A DNA stretch of 54,618 nt. Source: Deltaproteobacteria bacterium RIFOXYA12_FULL_61_11 (GTDB lineage: Bacteria > Bdellovibrionota_F > JAHFAK01 > YA12-FULL-61-11). Position 1 is the stretch's first letter, and each line of letters opens with the position of its first letter. Below the pieces are notes generated by a model. That model was not told the origin of the DNA. It ran no database searches and worked only from the letters and a program-made list of their open reading frames with translations. Shown here piece by piece: positions 1,958 through 19,085 of this stretch. The stretch covers positions 1 to 54,618 of the forward strand of contig MGSU01000066.1 in assembly GCA_001799195.1 (NCBI GenBank), in the 5' to 3' direction. The position numbers were made by a program, and so were the translations under genes.

Positions 1958-1960
1958 CGT

Positions 1961-4675: not shown

Positions 4676-4682
4676 GCTCCCT

Positions 4683-5606: not shown

Positions 5607-5639
5607 GGCTGTCAGCCCCCCTCCTCTCCTCGTGCCCGC

Positions 5640-6521
5640 TCAGACGTCGATCCTGGTCACCTTGATGATCGCGAACATGCCCACACCGATCAAGGCCAGG
5701 GCGAGAATGGTCATGCCGATGCCGGGCAAGGTCGTGAACATCTTGATCATGGTCTCGGGTTGCATCATGTAGAAGGCGAGACCCAGGACTATCGGCAAGG
5801 TCGAGAGGGTCACCCCTTGGGCCATGCCCATGGAGGTCAGGGCCGAGATCTTGCCCTCGACTTTGCGTCTCCCCATGATCGTCGTATAGAGCGTGTCGAA
5901 GGTCTCGGTCAGATCGCCGCCGGTCTCCCGGAGGATGACGATGGAATTGACCATGATCGTCAGATCGCGGCTGAGTATTCTCGCTGCTAGGCTGTTGAAG
6001 GCCTCTTCCAGACTCGATCCGAGACGATGTTCTGCCAGCAAGAGTTTGAACTCCTGCGAGAGTGGAGCTCCGATCTCGTCGATCATGATCTGCAAAGCTT
6101 GGAGAAAGCTCAAACCGGCCTTGAGCGAACTGCCCATCAGGTTGAGTGCATCGGTAAGCTGCTCGTCGAACTTCTTGAGCCGCAATTTGTAGAGCACGGT
6201 CAGCAGCACCACCGGGGCGAACCACCCCAGCACGCCGAGCACCATGCCGAGAATCGCAGCCGGCAGGAGCCCACCCCCGAGGAGAATGATCGCGCTGAAG
6301 GAACCGAGGCCGAGCCCTATCGGGGGGCCATAGGAGAGAAGATAGACGTGGTTCTGCCCGTGCGGCAGGAAGAGTTTGTCGAGCATGGCGGCGAACCACT
6401 TCAGCCGGTGCTGGTAGCGTCGGAGGAGACGCTGCTCGACGGCATCGTAACGATCGAGGATCAGGAAGAAAATCGCCACCCCGGCGAGCGCCGGGATCAG
6501 GAACGCGAATCCTTGTTGCAT
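5640..6521 (-). CDS. Tad platform protein, type II secretion system F family (TadB/TadC-like)
   Basis: 293-aa polytopic membrane protein with a T2SSF-like cytoplasmic domain ('DALNLMGSSLKAGLSFLQALQIM...EFKLLLAEHRLGSSLEEAFNSLA'). It sits directly downstream of the ATPase gene. Confidence 0.85.
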   Translation of the reverse strand: MQQGFAFLIPALAGVAIFFLILDRYDAVEQRLLRRYQHRLKWFAAMLDKLFLPHGQNHVYLLSYGPPIGLGLGSFSAIILLGGGLLPAAILGMVLGVLGWFAPVVLLTVLYKLRLKKFDEQLTDALNLMGSSLKAGLSFLQALQIMIDEIGAPLSQEFKLLLAEHRLGSSLEEAFNSLAARILSRDLTIMVNSIVILRETGGDLTETFDTLYTTIMGRRKVEGKISALTSMGMAQGVTLSTLPIVLGLAFYMMQPETMIKMFTTLPGIGMTILALALIGVGMFAIIKVTRIDV

Positions 6522-6524
6522 CGC

Positions 6525-8708
6525 TCAGACCTCCATGCTGCCGGTGAAGATACCCTGAGGCAGCCGGATGCCCCGTTCCTTGAGCGACTGGACGAACTTG
6601 GGGATGAGGCCCGTGGCCTGGAACACCCCCTTGACCTGCCCCTTTGTATCTACACCGGTCTGTTTGTAGAGGAAGATGTCCTGCAAGGTGACCATCTGGG
6701 CCTCGATACCGGTGACCTCGGTGATGTGGGTAATCCGTCGGGAACCGTCGGAGAGCCGGTTGAGCTGGATGATCATGTCCACGGCCGACGCGATCTGTTC
6801 GCGGATGGCCTTGGAGGGAAGATCGTACCCAGCGAACATGACGAGGGTTTCTAACCGCTGGATGCAATCGCGCGGATTGTTGGAGTGCAGCGTGGTCAAG
6901 GAACCGTCGTGCCCGGTATTCATGGCCTGGAGCATGTCCAGGGCCTCGGCCCCCCGGCATTCGCCGACCACGATGCGGTCCGGTCTCATGCGCAACGAGT
7001 TGCGGACCAAATCGCGGATCGAGACCTCACCCTCGCCCTGCAGGTTGGGCGGCCGGGTCTCCAGGATGACGACGTGCTCCTGGGGGAGTTGCAGTTCGGC
7101 CGAGTCCTCGACCGTAACGATGCGTTCGGTGCTGGGGATGAACCCGGCGACGATGTTGAGCAGCGTGGTTTTCCCGGTGCCGGTGCCGCCGGAGATGACG
7201 CAGTTCAACCTCGACTCGATCACCGCGCGCAGGAAGTCGGCCATCTGCTCGGTGAAGGTGCCGTACTTGACCAAATCGCGATAGGTCAGCCGCTCTTTCT
7301 TGAACTTACGGATGGTCACCACGGCGCCGCGCAGAGCCAGCGGCGGGATGATGGCGTGTACCCGCGAACCGTCCTTGAGTCGGCTGTCCACGTAGGGGGA
7401 CTTCTCGTCGATCCGCCGGCCGGTGGGCTGGACGATGCGGTCGATGACCCCGCGCAAGTGCTTGTCCGAGGTAAAGCGCAGGTTGGTCAGGAGCAGTTTT
7501 CCGCCCTTCTCGACATAGAGCTGGTCCTTGCGATTCACCATGATCTCGTTGATGTCCGGATCGGCGATGAGGTCCTCGAGCGGCCCGAGGCCGAGGGCCT
7601 CGTCCAGGACTTCCTTGGCGTAGCGCTTGCGCTCGGCCAGATCGAGGCTGGTGCCGAGTTCATCGATGATCCGGTTGATCACGGCTCGGGTGCGATCCCA
7701 CAGCTCGGCGACCTTCTTCTCGTCCTTGGCGGCTTCCGCCTCGGTCTCGATCTTCTTGAGGTCCATGAGTTCGATCAGCCGACGGTGGACCCGCAGCTTG
7801 AATTCGGTCTCGCGGTCGAACTCTTCCTTGCTCTGGAGCTTGAATAAATCGGCCGTGCTGCCGGAACCCGCGCCCATCTCCAAACCCGCCAGAGAACGGT
7901 TGAGCAAACGGAGCGTGGCGAGGTCGATTCCGTCTTCCGGGTTCGGTTGCCGCAACTTGCGCAAGACCGAATCCTTGAGCAGGAAGGCGGAGAGCTGGTT
8001 GATGCAGGCCGTGAACTGCGATCGCGGCTGCGAGAGCACGGCGGGGCTGGCATCATAGAGCGACTTCTCCACAGGCCCGGGTTCGAAGGGAATGGTCAGG
8101 AGCACCTCTTTTTGCAGTTTCTTGCCGACAATGGCCGGATCGATCGCCCCCCCGTGCTGATAGCGGTTGAAGATGATGTTGATGATGTTCTTGGAGAGCT
8201 GGGCGGCCTGGAAATCGGCCAACCTGGCCGGTGCCTCGTTGAGGACCATGACCTCGGGGCTGACCAGGAAGAAGATCAGCGAACTCAGCTCGTAGGCCTT
8301 GAGGTTGAAGGCCGTAAAGGTCGCGCCGGCGTCCAGGAAGATGAACCTGAAGCGCGTACGGAGATACTTGAAGAAGGGCCCCAGCAGACTCTGGTCCAGT
8401 TGGTCCAGCTCGCGGGGAGTATCGTACAGTTTCAGCACGTGACAACGGCCGGCGGGATGCGTGGTGATGCCCGCGGCGATGCGGCCGTGGTCGGCCCCTT
8501 TCATGTTGCCGATGAGCGAGGCGATCGTGGCCACCCGGTCCATGCCCAAGACCTGCTGCCCATCCCCGCAGTGGTCGAGGTCCAGGTCGAGATAGAGCAC
8601 CGGGTCCGAGACTTCACGTTGCACCGAGATGGCCAGGTTCACACAGAAGGTGGTCTTGCCCAGTCCGTCGCGGGAGCCGCCGATGGCGACGAAGACCCCC
8701 GGATTCAT
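6525..8708 (-). CDS. cpaF: Fusion of a CpaE/TadZ-like ParA/MinD domain (N-term ~260 aa) to a CpaF/TadA secretion ATPase
   Basis: N-terminus has 'VAIGGSRDGLGKTTFCVNLA', a degenerate deviant Walker A (compare KGGVGKTT). C-terminal half has the T2SE/CpaF Walker A 'VISGGTGTGKTTLLN', 'RIVVGECRGAEALDMLQAMNTGHDGSLTTLHSN' and other ATPase boxes. At 727 aa it is far longer than a stand-alone CpaF. ATGA overlap with the secretin stop at 8705-8708. Confidence 0.9.
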   Translation of the reverse strand: MNPGVFVAIGGSRDGLGKTTFCVNLAISVQREVSDPVLYLDLDLDHCGDGQQVLGMDRVATIASLIGNMKGADHGRIAAGITTHPAGRCHVLKLYDTPRELDQLDQSLLGPFFKYLRTRFRFIFLDAGATFTAFNLKAYELSSLIFFLVSPEVMVLNEAPARLADFQAAQLSKNIINIIFNRYQHGGAIDPAIVGKKLQKEVLLTIPFEPGPVEKSLYDASPAVLSQPRSQFTACINQLSAFLLKDSVLRKLRQPNPEDGIDLATLRLLNRSLAGLEMGAGSGSTADLFKLQSKEEFDRETEFKLRVHRRLIELMDLKKIETEAEAAKDEKKVAELWDRTRAVINRIIDELGTSLDLAERKRYAKEVLDEALGLGPLEDLIADPDINEIMVNRKDQLYVEKGGKLLLTNLRFTSDKHLRGVIDRIVQPTGRRIDEKSPYVDSRLKDGSRVHAIIPPLALRGAVVTIRKFKKERLTYRDLVKYGTFTEQMADFLRAVIESRLNCVISGGTGTGKTTLLNIVAGFIPSTERIVTVEDSAELQLPQEHVVILETRPPNLQGEGEVSIRDLVRNSLRMRPDRIVVGECRGAEALDMLQAMNTGHDGSLTTLHSNNPRDCIQRLETLVMFAGYDLPSKAIREQIASAVDMIIQLNRLSDGSRRITHITEVTGIEAQMVTLQDIFLYKQTGVDTKGQVKGVFQATGLIPKFVQSLKERGIRLPQGIFTGSMEV

Positions 8709-10150
8709 TGCCCCCGCTCCGTGGTGGCCTTGGGCGGATAGACTTCCTGGAGGTTGAAGTAGTCCTTCAGTTCGCTGTTGGCGTCCTTGGCGAACTCCAG
8801 GATGCGCGGGGTGATGAAGATCATGAACTGGGCCCGGTGCATGGAGAAGTCGCGCGTCTTGAACAGGGTGAAGAGCCCCGGCGCGGCCTCGGTCTCAGGA
8901 GGTTGCCGGTCGCGGACGTTGGCCGTGCTGGTACGCAGGATGCCCCCAATGACCACGCTCTCGCCAGAGCGCACGATCTGGTGCGTGGACACCTCGTTGC
9001 GGTCCACGACAAAGGTCCCGGCCGCGGTCGGGGTGCCGAGGGCGGCGACCTTGACCTGGATCCCGAGTTCGATCTCGTTGAGGATCTTGCGAGGCGAGAC
9101 CATGAAGGTCACGCCGATATCCTCGGTGGTCATCTTCGAACCCTCCTCGGTGGCCACCGGGATCATGATCTTGCTGCCCGCGAAGACCATGGCCTGCCCC
9201 CCGTCCTTGACCGACACGGTAGGGTTCTCCATGACCCGAACGACACCAAGCGATTTCATATAGTTGAGTCGCGGTATCAGGTCCGAGAACATGGCCGTGA
9301 CGCCGCCGGTGGTGGTGCTGGAATTGGAGGTCGGGTCGAAGAAGACGTGCATTTCGGCCTTGGCATCCGGGAAAGGCGTCCACTTGAAGAGGAAGTTCTG
9401 GTTGAGCATCTTGGTGAGCTCGATGTAGTGGGCCGTGATCTGGATGGTGTCGGCGCGCTCCGGACGCTTCTGTTCTTCGACCACGTCGAGGGCATCCACC
9501 ACGCTGGTGGGTGGGTCCCAATAGAGCTTGGCCAGCCGCATGGCCCGGTCCCGGGCCTTCTCGCTGTAGACCCGACCCTTGAGGATGAGCTTATCGCGGA
9601 AGGCCTGTACCTCGATATCGGGTTCGCCAATTTCCCGCTTGATCTTCTGGGCCAGGATCCGCTTGAAGTCTTGGCTCACCGTGACCTTGAGCACCACGTC
9701 ATCGCTGCCGGCCACGACCTGGTTGATGACCTTGAGGTCGTCTTGGAAGAAGACCTCACCCTCGACCACGACCTTGCCCCCGACTTGCCGGACCTCGACC
9801 CCGTCGATGTCTTTGAGCATCAAGCGCAATTCCTCGGTGAAGCGCTCGAGGTCGCGGGAGAAGACGGTGATGTTGATCACCTCGCGTTGCTTACCCTTGT
9901 CGTCGTAAATGATCAGCACGGTATCGCCCTTGGCCACGGGCACCAGGGTGACCTTCTTGGTCTCGCGATCCGCGAGATAGTTGCAGACCTCGGGTTTACC
10001 GATGTGGATGTCCCCGAGGGGATAGGCGAAGAAGAGGTTCTTGGGATTACCCACGACCAGGGTGTGTTTGACCGTTTCCTCGGCTCTGACCTCCGTGGCC
10101 CCGAGGAGAACGGAGAAGATCACCGGGAGGATAATCAAACAAGGTTTCAC
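8705..10150 (-). CDS. cpaC: Tad secretin (CpaC/RcpA family)
   Basis: C-terminal secretin domain ('VSPRKILNEIELGIQVKVAAL...VVIGGILRTS...LFKTRDFSMHRAQFMIFITPRIL'). I place the start at GTG 10150 ('VKPCLIILPVIFSVLLGATEVRAEE' signal peptide, AGGAGC about 10 nt upstream). The ORF-track start at 10342 would overlap cpaB. Confidence 0.85.
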   Translation of the reverse strand: MKPCLIILPVIFSVLLGATEVRAEETVKHTLVVGNPKNLFFAYPLGDIHIGKPEVCNYLADRETKKVTLVPVAKGDTVLIIYDDKGKQREVINITVFSRDLERFTEELRLMLKDIDGVEVRQVGGKVVVEGEVFFQDDLKVINQVVAGSDDVVLKVTVSQDFKRILAQKIKREIGEPDIEVQAFRDKLILKGRVYSEKARDRAMRLAKLYWDPPTSVVDALDVVEEQKRPERADTIQITAHYIELTKMLNQNFLFKWTPFPDAKAEMHVFFDPTSNSSTTTGGVTAMFSDLIPRLNYMKSLGVVRVMENPTVSVKDGGQAMVFAGSKIMIPVATEEGSKMTTEDIGVTFMVSPRKILNEIELGIQVKVAALGTPTAAGTFVVDRNEVSTHQIVRSGESVVIGGILRTSTANVRDRQPPETEAAPGLFTLFKTRDFSMHRAQFMIFITPRILEFAKDANSELKDYFNLQEVYPPKATTERGQ

Positions 10151-10178
10151 GAGGCCCACTGCTCCTGCGGTACCGCGA

Positions 10179-11018
10179 TCACCGAACACCCCGGATGTCC
10201 AGGTAAGGAGCTTTGTCCGGCACATGAATGGGTTCCTTCTCGTTGACGATGGTATAGGGCGTCTGCGGCAACAGGGTTTCCTCGCGGCCCGCGTCGAAGT
10301 GCGAGCGCAGGACCAAACTGATGGACCCCAGATCCTGCGCATGGATCAGCTTGTGGGCCTCGACGGGACGCAGGGACAGGGTGACGTTGCGGGCGAAGGT
10401 CTGATAGTTCCGCGAGTCGTTGGGATCCTTGGAGAACGGAGCGTCGACGAACCGATAATCGCTGCCCACGGCCAGCACCAGGATGTTCTGGAAGAGCAGA
10501 TAGGTCTTGGTGTCGAGTTGCGGAGGTCGATACGCCTGCATCTGGCCCTGCTGGCGATCGGCCGAGGTGGGTACTTTGAACTTGAAGGTACCGAAGATAT
10601 CGACGAAGTTGCCCGGCCTCACCAAACCATTTAGCCCGCTGACGTCGGAAACCCCCAGGGTCAGCGCGCGCATGCCTTCGGGCACGCGCAGGGCGAGATG
10701 GGTGTCCTCGAAGCGGCTGAGTTTGGTCTTGGTAACCTGTTCACCGGCATTGACGGTCAGGGAGGTCAGGCTGCCGACCACTTCATTGGGGTCGGAGAGG
10801 GCCTGGGGTTGCACAAACTGCTTGGGTACCTGGTCGACCCTGACCATGGTCGGTTCGATGCGCTGGTTGAACAGGATGTCCTGGGTGGCCACGACCACGG
10901 GCACGGGTTCGTAGGGGCCCAGGGCTTGGTCGATCTGGTTCCGGAGATACGTGGCGTGGAGGAAGACGGCAAGGCCTCCAAGGGCAAGGGCGATCAGTAA
11001 CTTCCGGCGACTCTTCAT
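10179..11018 (-). CDS. cpaB: Flp pilus assembly protein CpaB/RcpC (SAF domain)
   Basis: 279 aa with an N-terminal TM anchor 'RKLLIALALGGLAVFLHATYL', then 'VPVVVATQDILFNQRIEPTMV', typical of the CpaB SAF domain. Located immediately upstream of the secretin. Confidence 0.85.
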   Translation of the reverse strand: MKSRRKLLIALALGGLAVFLHATYLRNQIDQALGPYEPVPVVVATQDILFNQRIEPTMVRVDQVPKQFVQPQALSDPNEVVGSLTSLTVNAGEQVTKTKLSRFEDTHLALRVPEGMRALTLGVSDVSGLNGLVRPGNFVDIFGTFKFKVPTSADRQQGQMQAYRPPQLDTKTYLLFQNILVLAVGSDYRFVDAPFSKDPNDSRNYQTFARNVTLSLRPVEAHKLIHAQDLGSISLVLRSHFDAGREETLLPQTPYTIVNEKEPIHVPDKAPYLDIRGVR

Positions 11019-11070
11019 GACTGTGCCACCACTTTTACCTGTTTATTATCAACCCGTTGAAAAACAACCG

Positions 11071-11099: not shown

Positions 11100-11164
11100 C
11101 GACGCCAAGCAATTGCGCCGAGGGGTTGCGACCTGCTGCCCACCACCTTCGTGCGGCGGTTCTT

Positions 11165-11695
11165 TCAGTACGTATCCACAATATCAGCCTGACCACGCAA
11201 GAGGTTGCGTTCGCTCTCAGAGATTTGCTCAATATTGGACCGGTAACTCGAAAGATAGGGGGGGATGAACACGGGGCCAGAGGTAGGTCCGAGGTATCTC
11301 CCCATGTGATTCAACACTTTCACGGCTAAACTGGAATCGAAGTGAGACGGGAAGAACGGCAGCCGATACTCGAGGGTCACCGTTGCTCGCAGGAAATCGA
11401 AATGGCCGACCTGACTTGTCCCCGTGGTGGTAGCCGCTTGCGTGTAGGCGATCGGGCGGGTGACAAGCCCGGCATCCAATTCAGGGGCGAACGCCGACCA
11501 GTGATCGGGACGATTGAACAGCTCCTGCATGACCACATTCCTCAGGAGCAGGTGTTTCGGGAGTTCGTGCCGCATGATACGTAGATAGAAACTCGCCATC
11601 ATGAGCAAGAAGACCCAAACGAACAGCAACACAAAACTCATCTCGACGACCGCCTGACCTCTTGTACCCTGACCTCTCTTCCCTCTCACGAGCAT
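11165..11695 (-). CDS. TadE-like pseudopilin
   Basis: 176 aa. The N-terminus 'RGQAVVEMSFVLLFVWVFLLMM' fits the TadE/TadF prepilin-like motif (G/Q-x-x-V-E followed by a hydrophobic helix). Confidence 0.6.
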   Translation of the reverse strand: MLVRGKRGQGTRGQAVVEMSFVLLFVWVFLLMMASFYLRIMRHELPKHLLLRNVVMQELFNRPDHWSAFAPELDAGLVTRPIAYTQAATTTGTSQVGHFDFLRATVTLEYRLPFFPSHFDSSLAVKVLNHMGRYLGPTSGPVFIPPYLSSYRSNIEQISESERNLLRGQADIVDTY

Positions 11696-11702
11696 GGGAA
11701 CC

Positions 11703-13784
11703 TCAGTGCTTGAGTTCGGCGGCCGGGACCGGACGGTTATTGAGCCAAACCTGATCTCGAAACAGCTTCATCAGGGTGTCGAAGGTGGTACTACCCCCCA
11801 TATCGTTGAGCGGATTCGCCAACCCTCCCCCTGTCGCGGCGCGGCCATGATACGCGATGAAAGCGTGATCATTGAGAAGATATCGGGCGGTATCCATGAT
11901 CGTCCCGGGAAGCACCGGCACCGAGCCGCCGAGCAGGTGGGGAAGGTCGGCGCGCAGCGGGATCAACCCCGGCATCAGCGGGTTGACCAAGGCCTGGTCC
12001 AGGCCGACGTAATCCCAAGGAAAGGGCCACCGACGACTGATGAGTTGGGAGTAGAAGTATTCTCCTTGAGAGAAATCTGTCGGATCCCCGGGAAGGAAGG
12101 AAGGAGTCGCGGCTGTCAGCGGGAAAGCCATACCAGCCACCAGCGCGACATTCTGAGGATCGTTCTTGCTCGTGCTCCTCATCGGCAGGTTGATCGAGGC
12201 CACTTCGAAAGGCTGCACCAGAGCCGAGGTGAGGTGCATTTGCACGATCGGACTGTGATGCTGCACGTCCTTGTGCTGGGTCATGCCCTGGTTCGCGCTG
12301 CCGCGATACGCTGCGGCCGACGCCCACGCCATCACCGCCGGCGACCACTTCCGGCCGAAGGTGGACGAGAAGTTGGAATAGGTGAACGGAACCTCTTGGC
12401 GCTCGATCATCTCCAGGGGCGCAGGGGAGCGTTCCGAGCTGATGAGCCCGCGGCCGCGCGGGGTGGAGCCGTGCGCAACCCCCACGGTGACCGAGGGGGT
12501 GCCGTGGACCGTGGGATCATAGAGAATACGGCGGGGGATCATCCCCTCTTGGCAATATTTCCTGGCCAAGCGCCAAGCTTCATTGGCAACCCCTGGATCC
12601 TGACAGGTCTGCGCGGTGTTGCCGGTGCTGCACATACCCGGGCCCATCTCGTAGAGATGATACGGCACGATGTAGCGCATGTTACCGGTCAGGATGTCAC
12701 AGGTATAGGTGGGAGTACCCTCTGCGATGAAGGTGAAGGGTACGAAAGGGACACATTCCACCTTGATCCCCTCGGCCCCACCGATACCCCGGTACATGGG
12801 TTCGGCATAGACATAGATCTCTTCGTCGCGCAAGGAGCGGAGATTGCTGGCAACCACGGAGTATGCCATGCGCCGGGCGGAAGCTGCCGCAGCGGTATCG
12901 ATGTTCCTCCAGGCGGTGGAGACCAACTGGTCGAGCTCGGTGAGATAGCCCCAGAGCTCTTGTTCGATGAAGCGCAGACCGCGGATCCAGGGATTGAGCA
13001 AGGCCTTCTGGTACACGGGTAACGGTCTCGGGGGAGGCAGGGATGGATCGGTGGTGAGGCAATCCCAATCGTTCGAGCCGTTGGTGTCACAGCAGGTGAC
13101 CGCGGGATTGCCGCCCAATATATTGGAATAATAACCTGGATCGACAGCGGCATTGGAATTGTAGAACATCCAATTCGAAATGTACCGCTCGAAGGTCAGG
13201 TCCTGCAACTCCGGATTGCGCCACGCCGTGCCGGGGGCATAGACCGCATTGCTCATGGCCAGGACGTTACGGCAATTGACATAACCGGTAATCGTGCCGT
13301 TGTGGATGAAATTCGTGCCTGCAATACCGAAGGGGGGCGGGGTCAACCCCGGCATCGAGCACTGCACCCCCGAGGTCTGATGGACCAGGATGCGGAACAG
13401 GTCCATGATGCGTTCGTTGATGTGGGTCAAGCGGTTGGATTTGAGCGACGGTTGGACCGTGGCCAGTTGGGAACCGCCGAGACCCATGTGCCCCGCCACC
13501 CCGGCATACCGTTCCACCGTGCCGATGAGCGAGGCATCGGCTACTCCGGAATCGAGATAGACCGCCCGGACATGCGCCCCGACCATGGCGGCCAGATCGA
13601 CGATATTCTGCACCTTGATCTTGAAGGTCACGAGCTGGGCGGTGTTCAACACCATTTGCAGCACCACCAGGACGAGGAAGATGGAAAAGATGAAGGCGAT
13701 CATGGTCTGGCCGGGGCGAGACCTTCGCCGCAGAGGACGGATCCTGCACGGTGCGCGACGGTCAGGGTCCACAGAACCTCCCAT
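11703..13784 (-). CDS. TadG-like large pseudopilin/minor pilin (Tad_N-type N-terminus) with Cys-rich C-terminal region
   Basis: 'RPGQTMIAFIFSIFLVLVVLQMVLNTAQLV...VQNIVDLAAMVGA' matches the TadG N-terminal pattern. In-frame ATGs occur at 13784 and 13703. The ORF-track N-terminus (13785..14486) is off-frame sequence over the neighbouring TadE-like gene. No obvious vWA MIDAS motif was seen. Confidence 0.65.
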   Translation of the reverse strand: MGGSVDPDRRAPCRIRPLRRRSRPGQTMIAFIFSIFLVLVVLQMVLNTAQLVTFKIKVQNIVDLAAMVGAHVRAVYLDSGVADASLIGTVERYAGVAGHMGLGGSQLATVQPSLKSNRLTHINERIMDLFRILVHQTSGVQCSMPGLTPPPFGIAGTNFIHNGTITGYVNCRNVLAMSNAVYAPGTAWRNPELQDLTFERYISNWMFYNSNAAVDPGYYSNILGGNPAVTCCDTNGSNDWDCLTTDPSLPPPRPLPVYQKALLNPWIRGLRFIEQELWGYLTELDQLVSTAWRNIDTAAAASARRMAYSVVASNLRSLRDEEIYVYAEPMYRGIGGAEGIKVECVPFVPFTFIAEGTPTYTCDILTGNMRYIVPYHLYEMGPGMCSTGNTAQTCQDPGVANEAWRLARKYCQEGMIPRRILYDPTVHGTPSVTVGVAHGSTPRGRGLISSERSPAPLEMIERQEVPFTYSNFSSTFGRKWSPAVMAWASAAAYRGSANQGMTQHKDVQHHSPIVQMHLTSALVQPFEVASINLPMRSTSKNDPQNVALVAGMAFPLTAATPSFLPGDPTDFSQGEYFYSQLISRRWPFPWDYVGLDQALVNPLMPGLIPLRADLPHLLGGSVPVLPGTIMDTARYLLNDHAFIAYHGRAATGGGLANPLNDMGGSTTFDTLMKLFRDQVWLNNRPVPAAELKH

Positions 13785-14373
13785 ATCCGAGCACGCCGCG
13801 TTCGAGCCGATAGGGCGAGGTGACCCGGACTTCGTGCCACAATCCCTGAGCGAGGACCCCGAAGATGTTCCCGAGACCGGACCGTGACCTGAAGGGATAG
13901 GCCACCCGGAGGAGCCCGTAGCGAGGCCTTCTCGTTTCGTTGCAGCCCCCGAAGGCGATGTTCTCCGTCGCTCGATGTTCCACCGCGATATGCCCGGGTA
14001 GCCCGGCCGGAGGGAGGTAGAAGTCCATCTCGGTGCGATACCGCGGGAATTCGAGAGAGGTTTCCCCCAGTTCGATGTCCGACATCTCGGTATCGACCTT
14101 GACGACAGCCCCGGAGGACAGGCCGAGGAGACTATTCCTGGCCATGGGGAGCGCCCGCAGTAGGATCTCGTAGCCGACCTCCTTGAACAGGGGCGCACCC
14201 TGGGTGCCGGGGAAGCGCCCGTACACCTGATAGGATCGGGCAGCCATGAAGGCCGCATATTGGGCCACGGTGCGTTCGACGAAGAACATGCCCAGGTCGA
14301 AGAAGAGGAAGAGCACCCCGAGGAAGAGGGGCAGCACCAGGGCGAACTCGACGACCGTCTGGCCGCGGCGCTC
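13762..14373 (-). CDS. TadE-like pseudopilin (5' boundary unresolved)
   Basis: 'ERRGQTVVEFALVLPLFLGVLFLFFDLGMFFVERTVAQYAAFMAARS' is a strong TadE motif. No ATG/GTG/TTG lies in frame between this motif and TTG 14514. The coordinates given therefore start at the first codon after the Flp-like stop. Confidence 0.6.
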   Translation of the reverse strand, partial: ERRGQTVVEFALVLPLFLGVLFLFFDLGMFFVERTVAQYAAFMAARSYQVYGRFPGTQGAPLFKEVGYEILLRALPMARNSLLGLSSGAVVKVDTEMSDIELGETSLEFPRYRTEMDFYLPPAGLPGHIAVEHRATENIAFGGCNETRRPRYGLLRVAYPFRSRSGLGNIFGVLAQGLWHEVRVTSPYRLERGVLGYGRFCGP

Positions 14374-14644
14374 AGGGAAACGGCGCGCAGATGGTCTGCT
14401 CGGTCTGGTAGAAGAAGAGCTCCAGGAAGCCCATCTGCTCGGGTAAACCCGCCTGCACGCGCTTGGTCTGGTGAATAGGGCCCCACAGGAGGTTGTTCTC
14501 CTGATGCCTCGCAACCAACTGATGGAAGAACATGGCCAACAAATAGGCCACACAGACGCAGAGCGCGTACTCGGTGGTCGTCTGGGCTCGGCGGCGGGAG
14601 CGGTTGGCTCGGGTTCGGACCACAGCATTATTTCCCGGCCTCAT
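14372..14644 (-). CDS. Atypical Flp-family pilin-like protein (90 aa, Ala at -1)
   Basis: 'RSRRRAQTTTEYALCVCVAYLLAMFF' parallels the bona fide Flp motif 'RSRRGQTTTEYALIVGG', but Ala replaces the cleavage-site Gly and a ~45-aa C-terminal extension is present. ATGA overlap with the lipoprotein stop at 14641-14644. Confidence 0.55.
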   Translation of the reverse strand: MRPGNNAVVRTRANRSRRRAQTTTEYALCVCVAYLLAMFFHQLVARHQENNLLWGPIHQTKRVQAGLPEQMGFLELFFYQTEQTICAPFP

Positions 14645-15987
14645 CGCCAGGCCGAGGAGGAAAGGGGGGTTGCCGCGGTGGGGAGGAAACCGGGGGCCGT
14701 GGGGAGACCGGGAGCCGCCACCGCACCTGCCGGCGTACCGATGGTCGAGGGAGCGACCTGGCCCGTTGCCGCAACCGGACTAGTACCGCGCGCCATGGTC
14801 ACGTCGTTGCACGTGTTCCGACCCGTGAGCGCGGTAGGAGCGGCGCGGCGGAAGTAGAAGGACACGGGCTTGAGGCCCTCGTTCTTCTTCTGGGAAATGC
14901 CGCTGAGGGCGATCTCGATAATGGTATTGGGCAGCGCCTTGTTGGCTTCGACCATGCCGGTGGGATCGCCGGTCGCCACGCCGGCCGTCGACGTGGCGGG
15001 AATCTCGGCGCAGGTCGAGGCTCCTCGAACCGGGTTGTAACCATTGAGGGGCACCGTTGCCGCCATGGTAGGGGTGCCTTCCGGCAGGACTTCGACGTGA
15101 TCGCACCAGCCGTTGCGCGCATCGCCGACGACTCCGGGGAAGGCCGCCCACGTCGTAACCTGAGCACAGGGCGCATCCTTCACGCTGAAGGTATAGACCT
15201 CGGTGGCGCGGCTGCGCATGGGTACCAGCGCGATCTGACCGACGACGGGCAGCAGGGAATACGTTCCCTGGATGCTATCGTTGCCGCGCTGCCACGAGAA
15301 GGAGTATCCCTCTCCAAAAACAATGCGCTGGCCACTCTGATCGGTGAAGGCCACACCGATCAAGCGCTGGGCATCAAGGGGCAGCGAATTACCGGGCAAG
15401 GGGGCTCCCCCGACCCCAGCCGTGGCCGGACTGACCGCCAGGGGGGTCTCTCCGGAAACACCCCTGCTGCCGCCGAGCATCATCTTCATATAGGAGTACA
15501 TCATCATCATCTGCATGGGCATCATCATCGCACCCATGCCCTGTTGCATGATGCTCATGAGATTGGGACCACCTTCGTTCAATCCCTGGGCCGCGGCGAC
15601 CTGATCCGTGGTCTGGAGGGCACTGCTGAAAGGATCGGCATCCTGGTAGTTCAGCGCTCCGTCCCCGTCGGTGTCTCCCTGAGGATTATTCACCTGGGCG
15701 AGGTTGGGAAGCTGGCTGGTGTCGATACCGGTCTGCTCTTCCCAGGCCTTGGCCTCTTCGGTCGTCACCTGGCCGTCGCCGTCCGCGTCGGGTTCGGGGA
15801 ACGATTGGGCCGTGCGCGCTATCGGGTCATCAAGGGAGCTGACCGATGGATCTTCCGGATCGAGGCTCGGTGCTTTCACCCCCGTGCCGGAATCGTAGCC
15901 GGACCCCCCACAACCGGTCAGACCACCGACGAGGAGGATCCCGAAGAGCGCCACGGTCGAGGAACGTTTCATGCCGAAGAGGGTCAT
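14641..15987 (-). CDS. Tad-locus lipoprotein with two EF-hand-like Ca-binding loops and a Met-rich segment
   Basis: Lipobox 'LLVGGLTGC'. Loops 'DADGDGQVTTEE' and 'DTDGDGALNYQD'. Met-rich run 'LMSIMQQGMGAMMMPMQMMMMYSYMKMM'. The C-terminal ~270 aa are beta-rich with 4 Cys. An alternative start is ATG 15972. Confidence 0.7.
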   Translation of the reverse strand: MTLFGMKRSSTVALFGILLVGGLTGCGGSGYDSGTGVKAPSLDPEDPSVSSLDDPIARTAQSFPEPDADGDGQVTTEEAKAWEEQTGIDTSQLPNLAQVNNPQGDTDGDGALNYQDADPFSSALQTTDQVAAAQGLNEGGPNLMSIMQQGMGAMMMPMQMMMMYSYMKMMLGGSRGVSGETPLAVSPATAGVGGAPLPGNSLPLDAQRLIGVAFTDQSGQRIVFGEGYSFSWQRGNDSIQGTYSLLPVVGQIALVPMRSRATEVYTFSVKDAPCAQVTTWAAFPGVVGDARNGWCDHVEVLPEGTPTMAATVPLNGYNPVRGASTCAEIPATSTAGVATGDPTGMVEANKALPNTIIEIALSGISQKKNEGLKPVSFYFRRAAPTALTGRNTCNDVTMARGTSPVAATGQVAPSTIGTPAGAVAAPGLPTAPGFLPTAATPLSSSAWR

Positions 15988-16114: not shown

Positions 16115-16303
16115 TCAAGGAATGACGTTCCCACCCGAAATACCGGTACTGACCTGATTGCTCAACAAGCCCAACCCGGTGCTGATCATCGTGTAGAGTT
16201 GGCTCTTGAACAACAGGAACACGACGAGGGCGACCCCCCCGACGATCAGGGCGTACTCCGTGGTCGTCTGACCACGCCTCGAACGAAGCCTCTCGAACAA
16301 CAT
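16115..16303 (-). CDS. flp: Flp/Fap-family pilin (62-aa prepilin)
   Basis: 'MLFERLRSRRGQTTTEYALIVGGVALVVFLLF...' carries the G/xxxxEY Flp motif and hydrophobic helix. GGGGAGG Shine-Dalgarno 6 nt upstream of ATG 16303. The ORF-track start 16393 is an upstream extension. Confidence 0.85.
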   Translation of the reverse strand: MLFERLRSRRGQTTTEYALIVGGVALVVFLLFKSQLYTMISTGLGLLSNQVSTGISGGNVIP

Positions 16304-16480: not shown

Positions 16481-17374
16481 ATGCACCTCGATATCGTCGA
16501 AATCTTCCTCTTCCTGACCACCGGTGGCAGCATCGTCCTGGTCGCTCTGCTGCTCCTTCCCGATCAGGAAACCCTCAAGGCGCAACGAGCGCTCAAGGTG
16601 CGCGACGAATCCGAGGAGAACAAATACCTCCTCCTCAAATACACCAAGGTAATCTATACCTTCCTAACCCCTCATATGACCGCGCTCGCCCTTCCACGGT
16701 ATCGCGAACGCAAAGAACGCGCACTCGTCAAGGCAGGTTTGCGAGATATCATCGACGTCGATGATTTCCTGGCCTTGAAATGCAGCCTGCTGCTCCTCGT
16801 GTTCGTCTTCAAGATCATTTCTGCGCTCACCTCGACCGAGGCGCTCGATGTGAGCAGTATCGTGCTCTGGTGCGTAGTCGGCTTCTTCGTGCCGGATATC
16901 TGGCTGTCGATGATCACCAAACGCCGAGAAAATCGCATCCTGCGCGAATTACCCTTGTTCATCGACCTGCTCACCCTCTCGGTCGAAGCAGGTCTCGATT
17001 TCCTGGCCGCGATCACCCGCATCGTGGAAAAGCAGAAGGACAACCTCTTGGTCTCGGAATTCGATAAAATGCTGCGCGAGGTCAAACTCGGCACCTCCCG
17101 CGCTGACGCTCTGCGTAGTCTTTCGCAACGCCTCCAGGTGAGTCAGGTATCTTCCTTCCTCTCCGTACTGATCCAGGCAAGCCAAATGGGCATCAGCATC
17201 GGCGGCGTGCTGCGCATCCAATCCGACCTCATCCGCGAACAGCGCTTCCAAAAAGCCGAGAAAGCCGGAGCCCAGGCCACGCAAAAGCTGCTCTTCCCCC
17301 TCATCTTCTTCATTCTGCCCGCCCTCGTGCTGGTTATCTTCGGCCCCATCATCCTCGATCTCATGGGGGACTGA
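16481..17374 (+). CDS. Tad platform protein, type II secretion system F family (TadC/TadB-like)
   Basis: 297 aa with a T2SSF domain ('LPLFIDLLTLSVEAGLDFLAAITRIV...LGTSRADALRSLSQRL') and terminal TM helices. Confidence 0.85.
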   Translation: MHLDIVEIFLFLTTGGSIVLVALLLLPDQETLKAQRALKVRDESEENKYLLLKYTKVIYTFLTPHMTALALPRYRERKERALVKAGLRDIIDVDDFLALKCSLLLLVFVFKIISALTSTEALDVSSIVLWCVVGFFVPDIWLSMITKRRENRILRELPLFIDLLTLSVEAGLDFLAAITRIVEKQKDNLLVSEFDKMLREVKLGTSRADALRSLSQRLQVSQVSSFLSVLIQASQMGISIGGVLRIQSDLIREQRFQKAEKAGAQATQKLLFPLIFFILPALVLVIFGPIILDLMGD

Positions 17375-17432
17375 ACACCATGCACCCGCATACCTCATCC
17401 CTGTTTCTTTGCAGCCGGTCGGAATAACCCCC

Positions 17433-19085
17433 ATGAAGGGTCCGCGCCTCAAGACACTTGCCGGACCGGCCTCGGCAGAATCCTTCCCGCTCCTGGGTGA
17501 ACTGACCACGATCGGGAGAGGACCCGACAACAACGTGGTGCTCGCCTCGGCCACGGTTTCTCGCCATCATGCCCATGTCCGACAGACCGAAGCCGGTCAT
17601 CATATCGAGGACCTCGGCAGCGCCAACGGAGTCCAGGTCAACGGACAACGGGTACACGACGCCGAACTCCGTTCCGGCGATCGTATCCGCATCGGCGAGT
17701 TCGTCTTTACCTATCAACACGAACTTCCTGGCAGGATTGGAACCACCCAAGCCGCTGTTCACCAATCACGCGAAGAATCAAACCTTTCAGTAGGCGTGGT
17801 CGAAGAGGAAGCCCCTGAAGAGAGCGCTCTGCAAGAAACGGGATCGAACGGCCCAGCACAGTTCGGTCCCGGGGAAACCGCTCTGCCTTCAACCACCACC
17901 CGACCGCGACGTGTCTTCAGCGGGTTCGTCGAACGCATCTTAGCCTATGACTGGAAGACGAAGATCGTCTTACTGGTCCTCCTCTTCACCATCATCGTCT
18001 ATCAGACCATCATCGTCGGGGTCTTCGAGTTCGCCGACAACTTCATCATCACCCGCGGCGCCCAGAAGGCAGAACTCTTGGTCTCGCTGCTCGCCGAAAA
18101 ACACCGCTACGATCTCTACCAGGGCCGAGATCTGCTCATCGACCTCGAGAGCATCCTCAACGAACCCGGCGTCGTCGAAGCCTATCTCGCGGACGAATTA
18201 GGCCGAATTCGAGTGCCGACTTCGAAACAAGGCCAAGCCCTGCACGATACCATCACGAAAACCTCTCTGTTCCAAGGCACCTTGGCGACCAATTATCGGA
18301 ACATCAACGACGTCGTTGCCTTGGCAGAGCAGGGACAACCTCTTATCTTGGCCTATCCGGTCAAGGTCTGGATCGAGGAGGAGGTTACCTATAAAGTCAT
18401 AGGGGTAGCAAAACTGCTCTATGCCCCAACCGATATCCTTCCTCCTCCCGACCAAATTTTTCGCTTGCGGCTGGAAACCTTCCTCTATTTATCATTGGGT
18501 TCGATATTCTTGTACTTCGGCATCTTCGTTTTTACGATCTATCCGTTACGCCGCCTCAAGGACGAGACCGAACTGCTCATCAAGGAGAATATTTCCCGGC
18601 TCACCCTCTCGACCTCCTCTTTTCAAGAACTGACCGGCATTGTCGAGGGTATCAACCGCATCATGGCCAAGAAATTCGCCGTCAACAGGGATGCATCAGG
18701 TCTTGATGCCAGTTCAGCACAGTCTGCGAGCACTGTCGCAGAACCTCGGCTGGAATTCCTCCTGCAAACCATCAATGAGGGCGTGTTGGAACTGGACCCC
18801 GCGGGAATCGTTCTCCGGGTGAACCAACGAGCTGCCTTGCTCCTCTCCCTCTCCTTCAATGGAGGTGTAGGTCTGCACCTCGATGAAGTGGTTCCGGACA
18901 AAGACCTCAGGGAGGATTTTCACAAGATACTCGCAAGTCTCGATCGGGAAGGGACCTTCCAGGGCCCGGTCAGAGCGGGAGGGCCTGGTCAGATCGTGCT
19001 TGCCCGTGCGTTGCGTTTCAAGACAGACCTGGGTCAGACCTCTTCCTCCTTGTTCTGCTTCACCCAACAACCGGCAAGAGACTAG
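17433..19085 (+). CDS. FHA - TM - periplasmic sensor-like domain - TM - HAMP - PAS protein (no kinase output domain)
   Basis: FHA 'TTIGRGPDNNVVLASATVSRHHAHVRQ...IEDLGSANGVQVNGQRV'. TM1 'IVLLVLLFTIIVYQTIIVGVF', about 170 aa, then TM2 'LYLSLGSIFLYFGIFVFTIY', then a HAMP-like 'PLRRLKDETELLIKEN...ELTGIVEGINRIMAKK'. PAS-like 'LLQTINEGVLELDPAGIVLRVNQRAALLL'. The ORF-track start 17409 looks like a TTG; the first ATG is 17433. Confidence 0.8.
   Translation: MKGPRLKTLAGPASAESFPLLGELTTIGRGPDNNVVLASATVSRHHAHVRQTEAGHHIEDLGSANGVQVNGQRVHDAELRSGDRIRIGEFVFTYQHELPGRIGTTQAAVHQSREESNLSVGVVEEEAPEESALQETGSNGPAQFGPGETALPSTTTRPRRVFSGFVERILAYDWKTKIVLLVLLFTIIVYQTIIVGVFEFADNFIITRGAQKAELLVSLLAEKHRYDLYQGRDLLIDLESILNEPGVVEAYLADELGRIRVPTSKQGQALHDTITKTSLFQGTLATNYRNINDVVALAEQGQPLILAYPVKVWIEEEVTYKVIGVAKLLYAPTDILPPPDQIFRLRLETFLYLSLGSIFLYFGIFVFTIYPLRRLKDETELLIKENISRLTLSTSSFQELTGIVEGINRIMAKKFAVNRDASGLDASSAQSASTVAEPRLEFLLQTINEGVLELDPAGIVLRVNQRAALLLSLSFNGGVGLHLDEVVPDKDLREDFHKILASLDREGTFQGPVRAGGPGQIVLARALRFKTDLGQTSSSLFCFTQQPARD

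What the first reader, a model, noticed from the sequence alone, without database searches (positions are those of the whole stretch)
14641..15987. Tad-locus lipoprotein combining two canonical EF-hand Ca2+ loops with an extreme methionine-rich segment
Seen in sequence: a lipobox (LTGC) is followed by two 12-residue loops that fit the EF-hand pattern D-x-D-x-D-G-x-(V/L)-x-x-x-(E/D). These are 'DADGDGQVTTEE' (15754-15789) and 'DTDGDGALNYQD' (15640-15675). Then comes a 27-residue stretch with 15 Met, 'MSIMQQGMGAMMMPMQMMMMYSYMKMM' (15478-15558). A ~270-aa beta-rich, 4-Cys domain of unknown type follows. The gene sits between the two flp genes and is translationally coupled (ATGA) to the second. 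Established knowledge: P. aeruginosa PilY1 uses an EF-hand-like Ca site to bias type IV pilus extension and retraction. Met-rich tracts occur in periplasmic Cu(I)-handling proteins and in the SRP54 M-domain, where flexible Met side chains bind hydrophobic helices. Inference: this is a novel Tad accessory factor. Candidate roles are a Ca-responsive pilus or tip regulator, or a periplasmic or outer-membrane chaperone for the very hydrophobic Flp helix. It does not resemble the TPR lipoprotein TadD or RcpB.
Basis: partly seen in the sequence, partly recalled or inferred. Interest (0 to 1): 0.6.

Follow-up and report, generated by a model that had tools for sequence, protein, structure and literature searches.

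The report
Tip-module lipoprotein of a Tad pilus
This gene encodes a membrane-anchored, probably calcium-binding protein from a very rare family that always sits beside the small "tip" pilin genes of a Tad pilus in one uncultured bacterial class, so it is most likely a lineage-specific helper of the pilus tip, while its striking methionine-rich stretch is a local quirk.

Summary
The ORF (14641-15987, minus strand, 448 aa) and all its motifs are at the stated coordinates. One correction: the Met-rich stretch has 14 Met of 27, not 15.

It is not an orphan. A scan of 1.84 billion representative proteins gave two true relatives. Synteny-guided searching gave four more in two same-class genomes (hhalign 98.8 %, E 8.6e-17).

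All five genomic copies lie directly upstream of tadE, a TadG-like gene and a TadF-like gene. This is the Tad counterpart of the Myxococcus Kil "Tip" module. In the two relatives that module sits apart from the Tad core genes.

Family-wide features:
- a lipobox
- a moderately hydrophobic helix
- a disulfide-containing domain modelled, at low to moderate confidence, as a lipocalin-like 8-stranded barrel with a hypervariable Cys loop

The first EF-hand loop occurs only in this protein. Met-richness occurs only in its sub-branch.

Best reading: a lineage-specific accessory lipoprotein of the minor-pilin tip module of a Kil/Bdellovibrio-like Tad machine (TadZ-TadA fusion, FHA regulators). Its mechanism is inferred, not shown. 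Pilotin, immunity-protein, exported-cargo and copper-handling readings remain as rivals.

The parts
14641..15987 (-). Gene X: 448-aa lipoprotein, member of a 7-sequence family (alignment A7)
   Evidence: ORF and translation. Family membership by phmmer and hhalign.
15910..15987 (-). Signal peptide with lipobox L-T-G-C (aa 1-26; Cys26 is the predicted lipidated residue)
   Evidence: Read from the sequence. Lipobox-type motifs are found in 5 of 6 members that have an N-terminus, and an atypical SLTC in the sixth.
15754..15789 (-). EF-hand-type 12-residue loop DADGDGQVTTEE (aa 67-78), unique to this protein within the family
   Evidence: Pfam EF-hand_1 E 0.0066, 16.4 bits, below the 25.4 cut-off. 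Residues 53-128 align to calmodulin N-lobe / EhCaBP with E about 3e-4. The other six members have a gap here in A7.
15622..15678 (-). Bacterial TSP3-type Ca loop DTDGDGALNYQDADPF (aa 104-122), conserved in all 7 family members
   Evidence: D105, D107, G108, D109 and P119 are invariant in A7. PF18884 TSP3_bac hits 3 of 7 members with best E 5.2e-5, and TSP_3 hits 2 of 7.
15478..15558 (-). Met-rich segment (14 Met of 27), predicted helical. It aligns to a moderately hydrophobic, non-Met helix in relatives.
   Evidence: statistics; helices 130-148 and 156-171, low pLDDT; Met counts 14/8/4/0/2/1/0; mean Kyte-Doolittle 0.2-0.8, which is not transmembrane-like.
14803..15375 (-). C-terminal disulfide-containing domain (aa 205-395), modelled as a lipocalin-like 8-stranded beta-barrel
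   Evidence: AF2 models have core pLDDT of 56-83 but only 40-43 overall. VIA-align top hits are lipocalin-like lipoproteins with Z 9.0-9.5. Foldseek finds nothing at E<=0.001.
14932..15165 (-). Hypervariable Cys-containing insert inside the barrel (aa 275-352; 78 aa here, 11-48 aa in relatives)
   Evidence: insert length is 11-78 aa with 2-4 Cys. Identity among the three G002 paralogues is 14-35 % here, against 76-92 % in the TSP3 loop.
14644..14802 (-). Pro/Ala/Thr-rich tail (aa 396-448), predicted disordered
   Evidence: Composition. pLDDT is below 50.
16115..16303 (-). flp1, Flp-type pilin (62 aa)
   Evidence: Pfam Flp_Fap E 7.2e-5. The exact protein was seen on 11 contigs.
14372..14644 (-). 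flp2, a second Flp-like pilin (90 aa). Its ATG overlaps the stop of X (ATGA). It is a candidate 'adapter' pilin.
   Evidence: GC3 is 0.80 in this frame. An orthologue with the same C-terminal motif is in G001. The exact protein is on 5 contigs.
13762..14364 (-). TadE-like minor pilin (KilL-like position)
   Evidence: Pfam TadE E 7e-11. Genome search gives 46.3 bits.
11703..13703 (-). Large TadG-like minor pilin (KilN-like position)
   Evidence: Weak matches to G001-G003 homologues. The G001 homologue hits PF13400 Tad at 31.3 bits. ESM Atlas feature hits score 0.96-0.97 to Tad (PF13400) clusters.
11165..11695 (-). Small prepilin-like protein (176 aa; RGQAVVEMSF motif), in the TadF/KilM-like position
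   Evidence: Sequence. Syntenic prepilin-like ORFs are in G001, G002 and G003. There is no Pfam hit.
1202..11018 (-). Tad core and regulators: RcpC 10179-11018, secretin 8705-10342, TadZ-TadA fusion 6525-8708, TadB 5640-6521, FHA-TPR 4683-5606, FHA-TPR 1961-4675, PP2C 1202-1957
   Evidence: Pfam.
16481..19085 (+). Divergent TadC-like T2SSF gene (16481-17374) and FHA-PAS protein (17409-19085)
   Evidence: Pfam.

Best explanation
Gene X encodes a lineage-specific accessory lipoprotein of the minor-pilin ("Tip") module of a Kil/Bdellovibrio-like Tad pilus machine.

Shown here:
- It has a lipoprotein signal.
- It belongs to a small family whose genomic copies all lie immediately upstream of tadE, a TadG-like gene and a TadF-like gene.
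- In two relatives that module is physically separate from the secretin/ATPase core.
- The family keeps a TSP3-type DxDGDG loop and a Cys-containing C-terminal domain.
- Within one genome the N-terminal part is conserved while the C-terminal domain diverges.

Inferred:
- After export and lipidation the protein hangs from a membrane on a long acidic tether of about 120 aa that is rigidified by Ca2+.
- The hydrophobic (here Met-rich) helix and the lipocalin-like barrel with its variable disulfide loop form a binding module.
- That module engages the tip complex (Flp2 adapter plus TadE/TadG/TadF-like pilins) in the periplasm or at the outer membrane.
- It either helps the tip assemble or pass the secretin, or it acts as a tip-associated specificity subunit. 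This would be functionally analogous to PilY1 beside the minor pilins of type IVa pili.
For: Locus identity. The Tad locus is confirmed by Pfam.

Gene linkage. The stop of X overlaps the start of flp2 (ATGA), and that frame is coding by GC3.

Family.
- phmmer against 1.84e9 representatives gave two full-domain relatives, P0009 and P0023.
- Synteny-guided inspection found G001 lipB and G002 b1-b3.
- hhalign of A1 against A5 gives probability 98.8 %, E 8.6e-17, over 269 columns.

Context. All 5 genomic copies (G000 x1, G001 x1, G002 x3) lie on the same strand within 12 nt to 5.2 kb upstream of a TadE gene. The TadE gene is followed by a TadG-like gene and a small prepilin gene.

Split loci. In G001 the core locus flp-rcpC-secretin-tadZA-tadB lacks these genes. 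The linkage is therefore to the minor pilins.

Distribution. The family profile A7 found full-length members only in these three genomes out of 401 searched.

Match to the Kil system.
- The gene order matches Myxococcus Kil cluster II: KilK pilin, two unknown genes, KilL, a TadG-like gene, KilM (supplementary file 1 of PMC8460266, read).
- KilL/M/N are reported to form pilus-tip complexes, with small Flp 'adapter' pilins (PMC12075869, sections 8, 13 and 16, read).

Periplasmic or extracytoplasmic location. This is supported by the lipobox and by 4-8 Cys after the lipobox Cys in the mature protein.

Ca loop. D105, D107, G108 and D109 are invariant, and PF18884 hits 3 of 7 members.

Fold. Both models return the same lipocalin-like lipoprotein set, with Z 9.0-9.5.

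Diversification. Among the G002 paralogues, identity is 55-92 % in the N-terminal, TSP3 and linker regions, 21-48 % in the barrel and 14-35 % in the insert.
Against: - No physical or expression evidence exists. The organism is an uncultured MAG, 87 % complete.
- Both structure models are poor overall (mean pLDDT 40 and 43), and Foldseek found no match at E<=0.001. The barrel assignment is therefore tentative.
- Three out-of-class Tad loci of the same TadZA/FHA type (G351, G145, G032) have flp-tadE-TadG-like genes with no lipoprotein ORF between them. The protein is therefore dispensable for this kind of machine in general.
- A membrane-anchored lipoprotein is an odd candidate for a filament-tip subunit.
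- The context of the two metagenomic relatives (contigs of 2.3 kb) could not be read.
- The main text of the Kil tip paper mentions no lipoprotein.
Confidence: 0.55

Rival explanations
1. Immunity or inhibitor lipoprotein. The barrel domain is a periplasmic, membrane-anchored inhibitor, of the kind seen in small beta-barrel lipoprotein inhibitors. It would protect the producer from a lytic activity associated with, or delivered alongside, the Tad tip of a contact-killing (Kil-like) machine.
For: - G002 carries tandem arrays of three diverged a/b lipoprotein pairs next to a single tip module.
- The N-terminus is conserved and the C-terminal domain is fast-diverging. I recall that arrays of this kind are typical of immunity genes; no call tested this.
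- Potempin E, a lipoprotein protease inhibitor, is among the fold matches (Z 7.7-8.7).
- The locus is Kil/Bdellovibrio-like: it has FHA proteins and a TadZA fusion (passages of 10.64898/2026.07.08.737194).
Against: - No toxin or hydrolase domain was found in the neighbouring genes. The TadG-like protein has no Pfam or PDB match beyond its pilin N-terminus.
- G000 has one copy only.
- The fold matches are generic 8-stranded barrels.
- A predatory lifestyle for this lineage is not shown.
Confidence: 0.12
2. Secretin pilotin or outer-membrane assembly factor. It would replace the missing TadD/RcpB(CpaD) lipoproteins.
For: - It is the only lipobox ORF I saw among the Tad genes of the locus.
- No TPR lipoprotein is present, and Pilus_CpaD (PF09476) was not found in the 87 %-complete genome.
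- I recall that a barrel-like lipoprotein pilotin (MxiM of Shigella) is a precedent; this was not tested here.
Against: - In G001 and G002 the homologues travel with the minor pilins, away from the secretin.
- The secretin's C-terminal tail is equally conserved in G001.
- Out-of-class loci with 27-41 % identical secretins have no such lipoprotein at this place.
Confidence: 0.1
3. Exported surface lipoprotein. The Tad machine would act like a type II secretion system, and X and its relatives would be cargo or adhesins displayed on the cell surface.
For: - The architecture is a long disordered tether plus a variable, disulfide-bonded domain.
- G002 shows paralogue expansion.
- The Kil authors leave open whether their Tad-like system also secretes (PMC8460266 discussion, passages).
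- I recall that lipoproteins exported by type II systems are known.
Against: No evidence of export exists. Tight coupling to flp2 suggests a structural or assembly partner rather than a substrate.
Confidence: 0.1
4. Either the Met-rich helix is an SRP54-M-domain-like chaperone for the hydrophobic Flp helix, or it is a periplasmic Cu(I)-binding element.
For: - Met enrichment is extreme: 14 of 27, P about 6e-10.
- It is partly shared by the nearest relative P0009, which has 8 Met in the aligned segment.
- The segment is predicted helical.
Against: - Four of 7 family members have 0-2 Met in the aligned segment, so Met cannot be essential to the family's function.
- The stretch contains no His.
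- No copper genes were seen among the locus ORFs scanned.
- Pilins are held in the inner membrane before assembly (general knowledge).
Confidence: 0.06

Closest known systems
Myxococcus xanthus Kil system tip clusters (KilK/KilO Flp adapters; KilL, KilN, KilM = TadE-, TadG-, TadF-like), PMC8460266 and PMC12075869
   Same: - The gene order is small Flp pilin, unknown gene(s), TadE-like, large TadG-like, small minor pilin.
- FHA-TPR (KilD-like) and further FHA proteins are present.
- In G001 and G002 the tip module is split from the core, as in Kil.
   Different: - No sequence relative of X was found outside its class, with E<=0.001 against 1.84e9 representatives and 401 genomes.
- MXAN_4656/4657, which sit at the same position, could not be fetched or compared.
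- The ATPase here is fused to TadZ rather than to FHA.
- The Kil papers describe no tip-module lipoprotein in the text I read.
PilY1 of type IVa pili (Pseudomonas aeruginosa)
   Same: It is a non-pilin protein encoded among the minor-pilin genes and carries an EF-hand-like Ca site.
   Different: - X has no PilY1/PilC beta-propeller Pfam hit.
- X is a lipoprotein about one third the size.
- No homology is detected.
Bacterial lipocalin-like lipoproteins (e.g. BACOVA_00364 4gzv, Treponema Tp0751 5jk2 and TP0435 4u3q, Vibrio ToxS/VtrC, Tannerella potempin E)
   Same: The predicted core is an 8-stranded up-and-down barrel preceded by a short helix. Z is 7.1-9.5 and rmsd 2.0-4.3 A over 78-105 residues. 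Many of these proteins are lipoproteins.
   Different: - Sequence identity is 4-19 %.
- Foldseek is not significant.
- The models have low confidence.
- X carries a long Cys-containing insert and N-terminal Ca loops.
Secreted bacterial EF-hand repeat proteins and bacterial TSP3 repeats (PF13202/PF13499; PF18884)
   Same: - The DxDGDG loops are shared.
- 47 of the 49 non-self hits match only this region.
- 12 of the 14 hits scanned are multi-EF-hand proteins.
   Different: - X has only one loop of each kind.
- Its Pfam scores are below the cut-offs.
- The rest of the protein is unrelated.
TadD (TPR pilotin) and RcpB/CpaD of canonical Tad systems
   Same: They are lipoproteins or outer-membrane accessory factors encoded in Tad loci.
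   Different: X has no TPR and no Pilus_CpaD match. Its gene neighbourhood is the minor pilins, not the secretin.

Membership tests
Bacterial lipoprotein (SPase II substrate) | N-terminal signal peptide ending in a lipobox [LVI][ASTVI][GAS]C | tested here: met
   MKRSSTVALFGILLVGG-LTGC, with Cys26. The consensus is recalled. No dedicated predictor was run.
EF-hand (PF00036 / paired PF13499) | 12-residue loop with D1, D/N3, D/N/S5, G6, hydrophobic 8 and E12 | tested here: met
   Loop 1, DADGDGQVTTEE, fits at every position. Loop 2 has D at position 12. The consensus is recalled.
EF-hand (PF00036 / paired PF13499) | Pfam score above the gathering cut-off | tested here: not met
   EF-hand_1 scores 16.4 bits against a cut-off of 25.4. 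EF-hand_5 and EF-hand_6 are weaker. EF-hand_7 (the pair model) gives no hit.
EF-hand (PF00036 / paired PF13499) | Helix-loop-helix pair architecture | tested here: inconclusive
   Residues 53-128 align to the calmodulin N-lobe across both loops, with E 3e-4 to 1e-2. A helix at 76-86 follows loop 1. However, Pro-Glu-Pro precedes loop 1, the model pLDDT is below 50, and loop 1 is absent from all 6 relatives.
EF-hand / TSP3 | Binds Ca2+ | not testable with these tools
   This needs ITC, DSF or 45Ca overlay on recombinant protein.
Bacterial TSP3 repeat (PF18884 / PF02412) | DxDxDGxxDxxE/D...DP motif recognised by the Pfam model | tested here: inconclusive
   PF18884 hits 3 of 7 family members (best E 5.2e-5). 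TSP_3 hits 2 of 7: P0009 at E 0.0058 and P0001 at only E 0.81. The motif residues are invariant in A7.
Lipocalin-like / calycin beta-barrel | 8-stranded antiparallel up-and-down barrel | tested here: inconclusive
   Two models (core pLDDT 56-83, overall 40-43) give Z 9.0-9.5 to lipocalin-like lipoproteins. Foldseek's best E is 0.057. There is no Pfam or PDB sequence match.
TadD pilotin | TPR repeats in a lipoprotein | tested here: not met
   X has no TPR family hit even at E<=10.
RcpB / CpaD (PF09476) | Match to Pilus_CpaD | tested here: not met
   X has no hit, and the own genome has none (the control Caulobacter genome matched).
PilY1 / PilC | C-terminal beta-propeller domain (Pfam Neisseria_PilC; family name recalled) | tested here: not met
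   No such Pfam hit at E<=10. The predicted fold is a small barrel.
Met-rich Cu(I)-binding periplasmic proteins | Conserved Met (and His) metal-binding motifs | tested here: not met
   Met counts in the aligned segment are 14, 8, 4, 0, 2, 1 and 0 across the 7 members. The stretch contains no His.
Kil-type / Tad tip (minor pilin) module | Adjacent TadE-like, large TadG-like and small TadF-like prepilin genes with a small Flp adapter | tested here: met
   - TadE Pfam E 7e-11.
- TadG-like status rests on the G001 homologue's PF13400 hit and on Atlas scores of 0.96-0.97.
- The prepilin motif RGQAVVEMSF is in the 176-aa ORF.
- flp2 is present.
- The order matches supplementary file 1 of PMC8460266.
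Kil-type / Tad tip (minor pilin) module | X itself is a described component of such modules | tested here: not met
   The word 'lipoprotein' has no occurrence in the main text of PMC12075869. Full-text searches returned no paper on a tip-module lipoprotein.

The most novel reading that the evidence does not exclude
The X family, together with the unrelated 'a-type' lipoproteins paired with it in G001 and G002, would be interchangeable specificity or cargo modules of Tad tips. These polymorphic, Ca-stabilised lipoproteins would be handed to, or displayed by, the minor-pilin tip of a contact-dependent (Kil-like) Tad machine. Tip function would then be diversified by swapping lipoprotein partners rather than by changing only the TadG-like pilin.
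Probability: 0.12. Interest if true: 0.75.

Novelty: new variant of a known kind. Interest (0 to 1): 0.45.

Why it matters
Recent work on Myxococcus proposes that Tad pili carry exchangeable minor-pilin "tips" that decide what the pilus recognises or kills. The genes of unknown function inside those tip clusters are unexplained.

This locus, and its relatives in an uncultured class, show a conserved and diversifying lipoprotein family that is genetically locked to the tip module rather than to the secretion core. If the family is a tip assembly factor or a tip partner, it adds a new component class to type IVc pilus biology. It also gives a concrete hypothesis for the unknown genes at the same position in Kil-type systems.

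The practical limits are that the family is very rare and the hosts are uncultured.

Tried and rejected
Searches that did not extend the family:
- Word-indexed homologue searches with P0001, with alignment A1 and with P0009 residues 108-325 returned only the queries and P0023.
- Scans of genome contigs and metagenome contigs with A1 used the TSP3 motif as the pattern. L006 is a 1669-aa protein, not a member.
- The single-sequence genome search over 41 genomes missed the class homologues. They were found only through synteny.
- NCBIfam gave nothing.
- ESM Atlas on the barrel domain scored 0.76, which is noise.
- The PDB profile search with A7 gave nothing significant.
- The search of earlier findings was empty twice.

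Other steps that led nowhere:
- The promoter/terminator scan gave nothing above the shuffled expectation near the gene.
- P0054, a (DG)n lipoprotein beside rcpC in G002, shares only the DG repeat (hhalign probability 24 %).
- The a-type lipoproteins share only the N-terminus with X (hhalign probability 72 % over 69 columns), and none was found in G000.
- Complex prediction with X residues 130-405 and mature Flp2 gave 'no answer' (ipSAE 0.00). This is no evidence either way.
Expression, strain variation of the ATG repeat and the flp2/tadE junction therefore could not be checked against reads.

Ideas considered and rejected:
- The Met-rich segment as a transmembrane helix: mean hydropathy is only 0.2.
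- A pilotin binding the secretin C-tail: the tail is conserved in G001, where the homologue is encoded elsewhere.
Full report
OBSERVATION

The ORF at 14641-15987 on the minus strand encodes 448 residues. The stretch contains 14 Met in 27 residues, not 15.

The enrichment is far beyond chance. The binomial P is about 6e-10 over all windows, and no more than 8 Met appeared in a 27-residue window in 20000 shuffles. The EF-hand-like pattern occurs only twice in the six-frame translation of the whole window, both times in this ORF.

The stop of the gene overlaps the ATG of a second Flp-like ORF (14372-14644) in an ATGA. The GC3 of that ORF (0.80) matches real genes of the locus. Pfam confirms the surrounding Tad locus:
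- Flp
- TadE
- RcpC
- secretin
- a 727-aa protein with an N-terminal CbiA/ParA-like part and a T2SSE ATPase (a TadZ-TadA fusion)
- two T2SSF proteins
- three FHA proteins, two of them with TPR and one with PAS
- a PP2C phosphatase

IS IT AN ORPHAN?

Pfam gives only a sub-threshold EF-hand_1 hit (16.4 bits against a cut-off of 25.4), and NCBIfam gives nothing.

An exhaustive phmmer scan of 1.84 billion representatives returned 49 non-self hits.
- 47 of them match only the acidic loop region. Of the 14 hits I scanned, 12 are multi-EF-hand proteins.
- The other two, P0009 (325 aa, a lipoprotein) and P0023 (301 aa, N-terminally cut), align through the Met-rich region and the C-terminal domain.
- Each is a singleton on a contig of about 2.3 kb, so their context is unknown.

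Word-indexed searches and collection scans added nothing. Forty related genomes gave no hit with the single sequence.

SYNTENY FINDS THE FAMILY

The genome is a MAG, 87 % complete, with only three same-class genomes in the collection.

The Tad cores of those genomes are clearly orthologous. RcpC is 37-39 % identical, the secretin 46-47 % and TadZA 52-54 %. In G001, however, flp is followed directly by rcpC.

The minor-pilin genes lie elsewhere:
- G001:C132 carries lipoprotein A (465 aa), an flp2-like gene, lipoprotein B (287 aa), TadE, a TadG-like gene and a TadF-like gene, packed as one operon.
- G002:C88 carries three tandem A/B lipoprotein pairs followed by TadE, a TadG-like gene and a TadF-like gene.
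- The G003 contig ends inside tadE, so its upstream region is unknown.

The B-type lipoproteins are homologues of X. hhalign of A1 against A5 gives probability 98.8 %, E 8.6e-17, over 269 columns. The A-type proteins share only the signal peptide and the DxDGDG region.

A 7-sequence profile (A7) searched over 401 genomes found full-length members only in G000, G001 and G002. Four other genomes matched only the TSP3 motif.

All five genomic copies therefore sit on the same strand just upstream of a tadE / TadG-like / small-prepilin block. In two of the three genomes that block is detached from the secretin and ATPase genes.

WHAT THE FAMILY CONSERVES

1. A lipobox.
2. One DxDGDG loop followed by a D/N-rich segment and Pro. 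Pfam recognises it as a bacterial TSP3 repeat in 3 of 7 members (best E 5.2e-5).
3. A moderately hydrophobic segment, predicted helical. It is Met-rich only in P0001 (14 Met) and P0009 (8), with 4 in P0023 and 0-2 in the other four. Its mean hydropathy of 0.2-0.8 is too low for a membrane span.
4. A Cys-containing domain.

The first loop (aa 67-78) is a textbook EF-hand loop. Together with the second loop it aligns to the calmodulin N-lobe at E about 3e-4. It lies, however, in an insertion that the six relatives lack.

FOLD

Two AlphaFold2 models, one of P0001 and one of P0009, each built on only three sequences, are poor overall (mean pLDDT 40 and 43). Both give a helix followed by eight strands, with pLDDT 56-83 in the core.

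An all-against-representatives structural search returns the same set for both models:
- lipocalin-like bacterial lipoproteins 4gzv (Z 9.0 and 9.5), Tp0751 and TP0435
- Vibrio ToxS/VtrC
- potempin E
- designed 8-stranded barrels

Foldseek finds nothing at E<=0.001. I treat "lipocalin-like barrel" as likely but unproven.

Between the sixth and seventh strands lies an insert of 11-78 residues with 2-4 Cys. It is the most variable part of the family. Among the three G002 paralogues, identity is 76-92 % in the TSP3 loop, 21-48 % in the barrel and 14-35 % in the insert.

COMPARISON WITH KNOWN SYSTEMS

The locus type (FHA-TPR proteins, further FHA proteins, PP2C) recalls the Myxococcus Kil system.
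- I read passages of PMC8460266 and its supplementary file 1. Kil cluster II reads KilK (Flp), two genes of unknown function, KilL, a TadG-like gene and KilM. This is the arrangement found here, with X and flp2 in the middle.
- I read sections 8, 13 and 16 of PMC12075869. It reports that KilL/M/N form exchangeable pilus "Tips" and that the small Flp proteins KilK and KilO act as adapters.
- Its main text does not contain the word lipoprotein.

A TadZ-TadA fusion is described for Bdellovibrio bacteriovorus in a 2026 preprint (passages only). By my count from the table, full-length fusion homologues occur in about 25 of 401 genomes.

In three such out-of-class loci (G351, G145, G032) flp is followed by tadE and a TadG-like gene with no lipoprotein ORF between them. 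X is therefore an add-on of one lineage and not a core part.

The large neighbour (11703-13703) is TadG-like on three lines of evidence: its G001 homologue hits PF13400, and its ESM Atlas feature scores to Tad clusters are 0.96-0.97, one of those clusters being mostly Bdellovibrionota.

MECHANISM

Shown:
- an export and lipidation signal
- extracytoplasmic Cys content
- a conserved Ca-type loop
- strict genetic linkage to the tip module
- translational coupling to flp2
- divergence concentrated in the barrel and its insert

Inferred: a Ca-stiffened acidic tether holds a helix-plus-barrel binding module that acts on, or with, the tip complex.

I put 0.55 on "tip-module accessory lipoprotein" and much less on any particular interaction.

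Full-text searches for a Tad or minor-pilin lipoprotein with Ca loops, a lipocalin fold or Met-rich segments found no such description. Supplements of PMC12075869 were not opened and might list neighbouring genes.

VERDICT

The interpretation as a novel Tad accessory factor is supported, and it is sharpened to the minor-pilin tip module. The two eye-catching features, the canonical EF-hand and the Met run, are idiosyncrasies of this one protein or its sub-branch. It is a new component variant of a known kind of machine, of moderate interest.

Noticed in passing
window 14364-14644 (-): The TadE-like gene has no usable start codon near its prepilin motif. The nearest in-frame ATG/GTG/TTG is a TTG at 14514, 50 codons upstream, inside the flp2 coding region and without a Shine-Dalgarno sequence. 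flp2 ends ...CCC TGA, and the TadE motif (ERRGQTVVEF) begins at that stop in the +1 frame. This could be an assembly indel, an unusual initiation, or +1 frameshifting at CCC_UGA that fuses Flp2 to TadE. The G001 orthologue of tadE has its own ATG.
   Followed up: partly
window 6525-8708 (-): The Tad ATPase is a 727-aa fusion of a ParA/MinD-like TadZ part and TadA. Full-length homologues (39-54 % identity) occur in about 25 of 401 genomes searched. The same fusion is described for Bdellovibrio bacteriovorus in a 2026 preprint.
   Followed up: partly
L022 (G001:C132) 5880-10933; L023 (G002:C88) 1632-12630; L012 (G001:C101): In the two same-class genomes the Tad genes are split. The core (flp-rcpC-secretin-tadZA-tadB) is at one place, and the lipoprotein plus minor-pilin module is on another contig. 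This resembles the split Kil clusters of Myxococcus.
   Followed up: yes
L022 5880-7277; L023 1632-2786, 4454-5587, 6891-8069: A second, unrelated lipoprotein family ('A-type', 377-465 aa, 9-12 Cys, with the DSDGDG..GTDP motif) is paired with each X-type gene in G001 and G002. It was not found in G000. G002 has three tandem A/B pairs.
   Followed up: partly
L011 (G002:C15) 7400-8368 (+): A 322-aa lipoprotein with a long (DG)n repeat is encoded divergently next to rcpC in G002. It is not homologous to X beyond the repeat.
   Followed up: partly
window 8705-8830 (-); L012 3484-3600: The secretin carries a C-terminal tail, KDANxELKDYFNLxEVYP, after the secretin domain. It is almost identical between G000 and the 46 %-identical G001 protein, so it is a possible docking site for an unknown partner.
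   Followed up: no
window 1202-5606 (-), 17409-19085 (+): Three FHA-domain proteins (two with TPR, one with PAS) and a PP2C phosphatase flank the Tad genes. This suggests control of the machine by Ser/Thr phosphorylation, as proposed for Kil.
   Followed up: no
window 15478-15558 (-): The Met run is encoded by short (ATG)3-4 repeats. Two strain variants from other assemblies differ by single substitutions (M161I, G172C), not by repeat length.
   Followed up: yes
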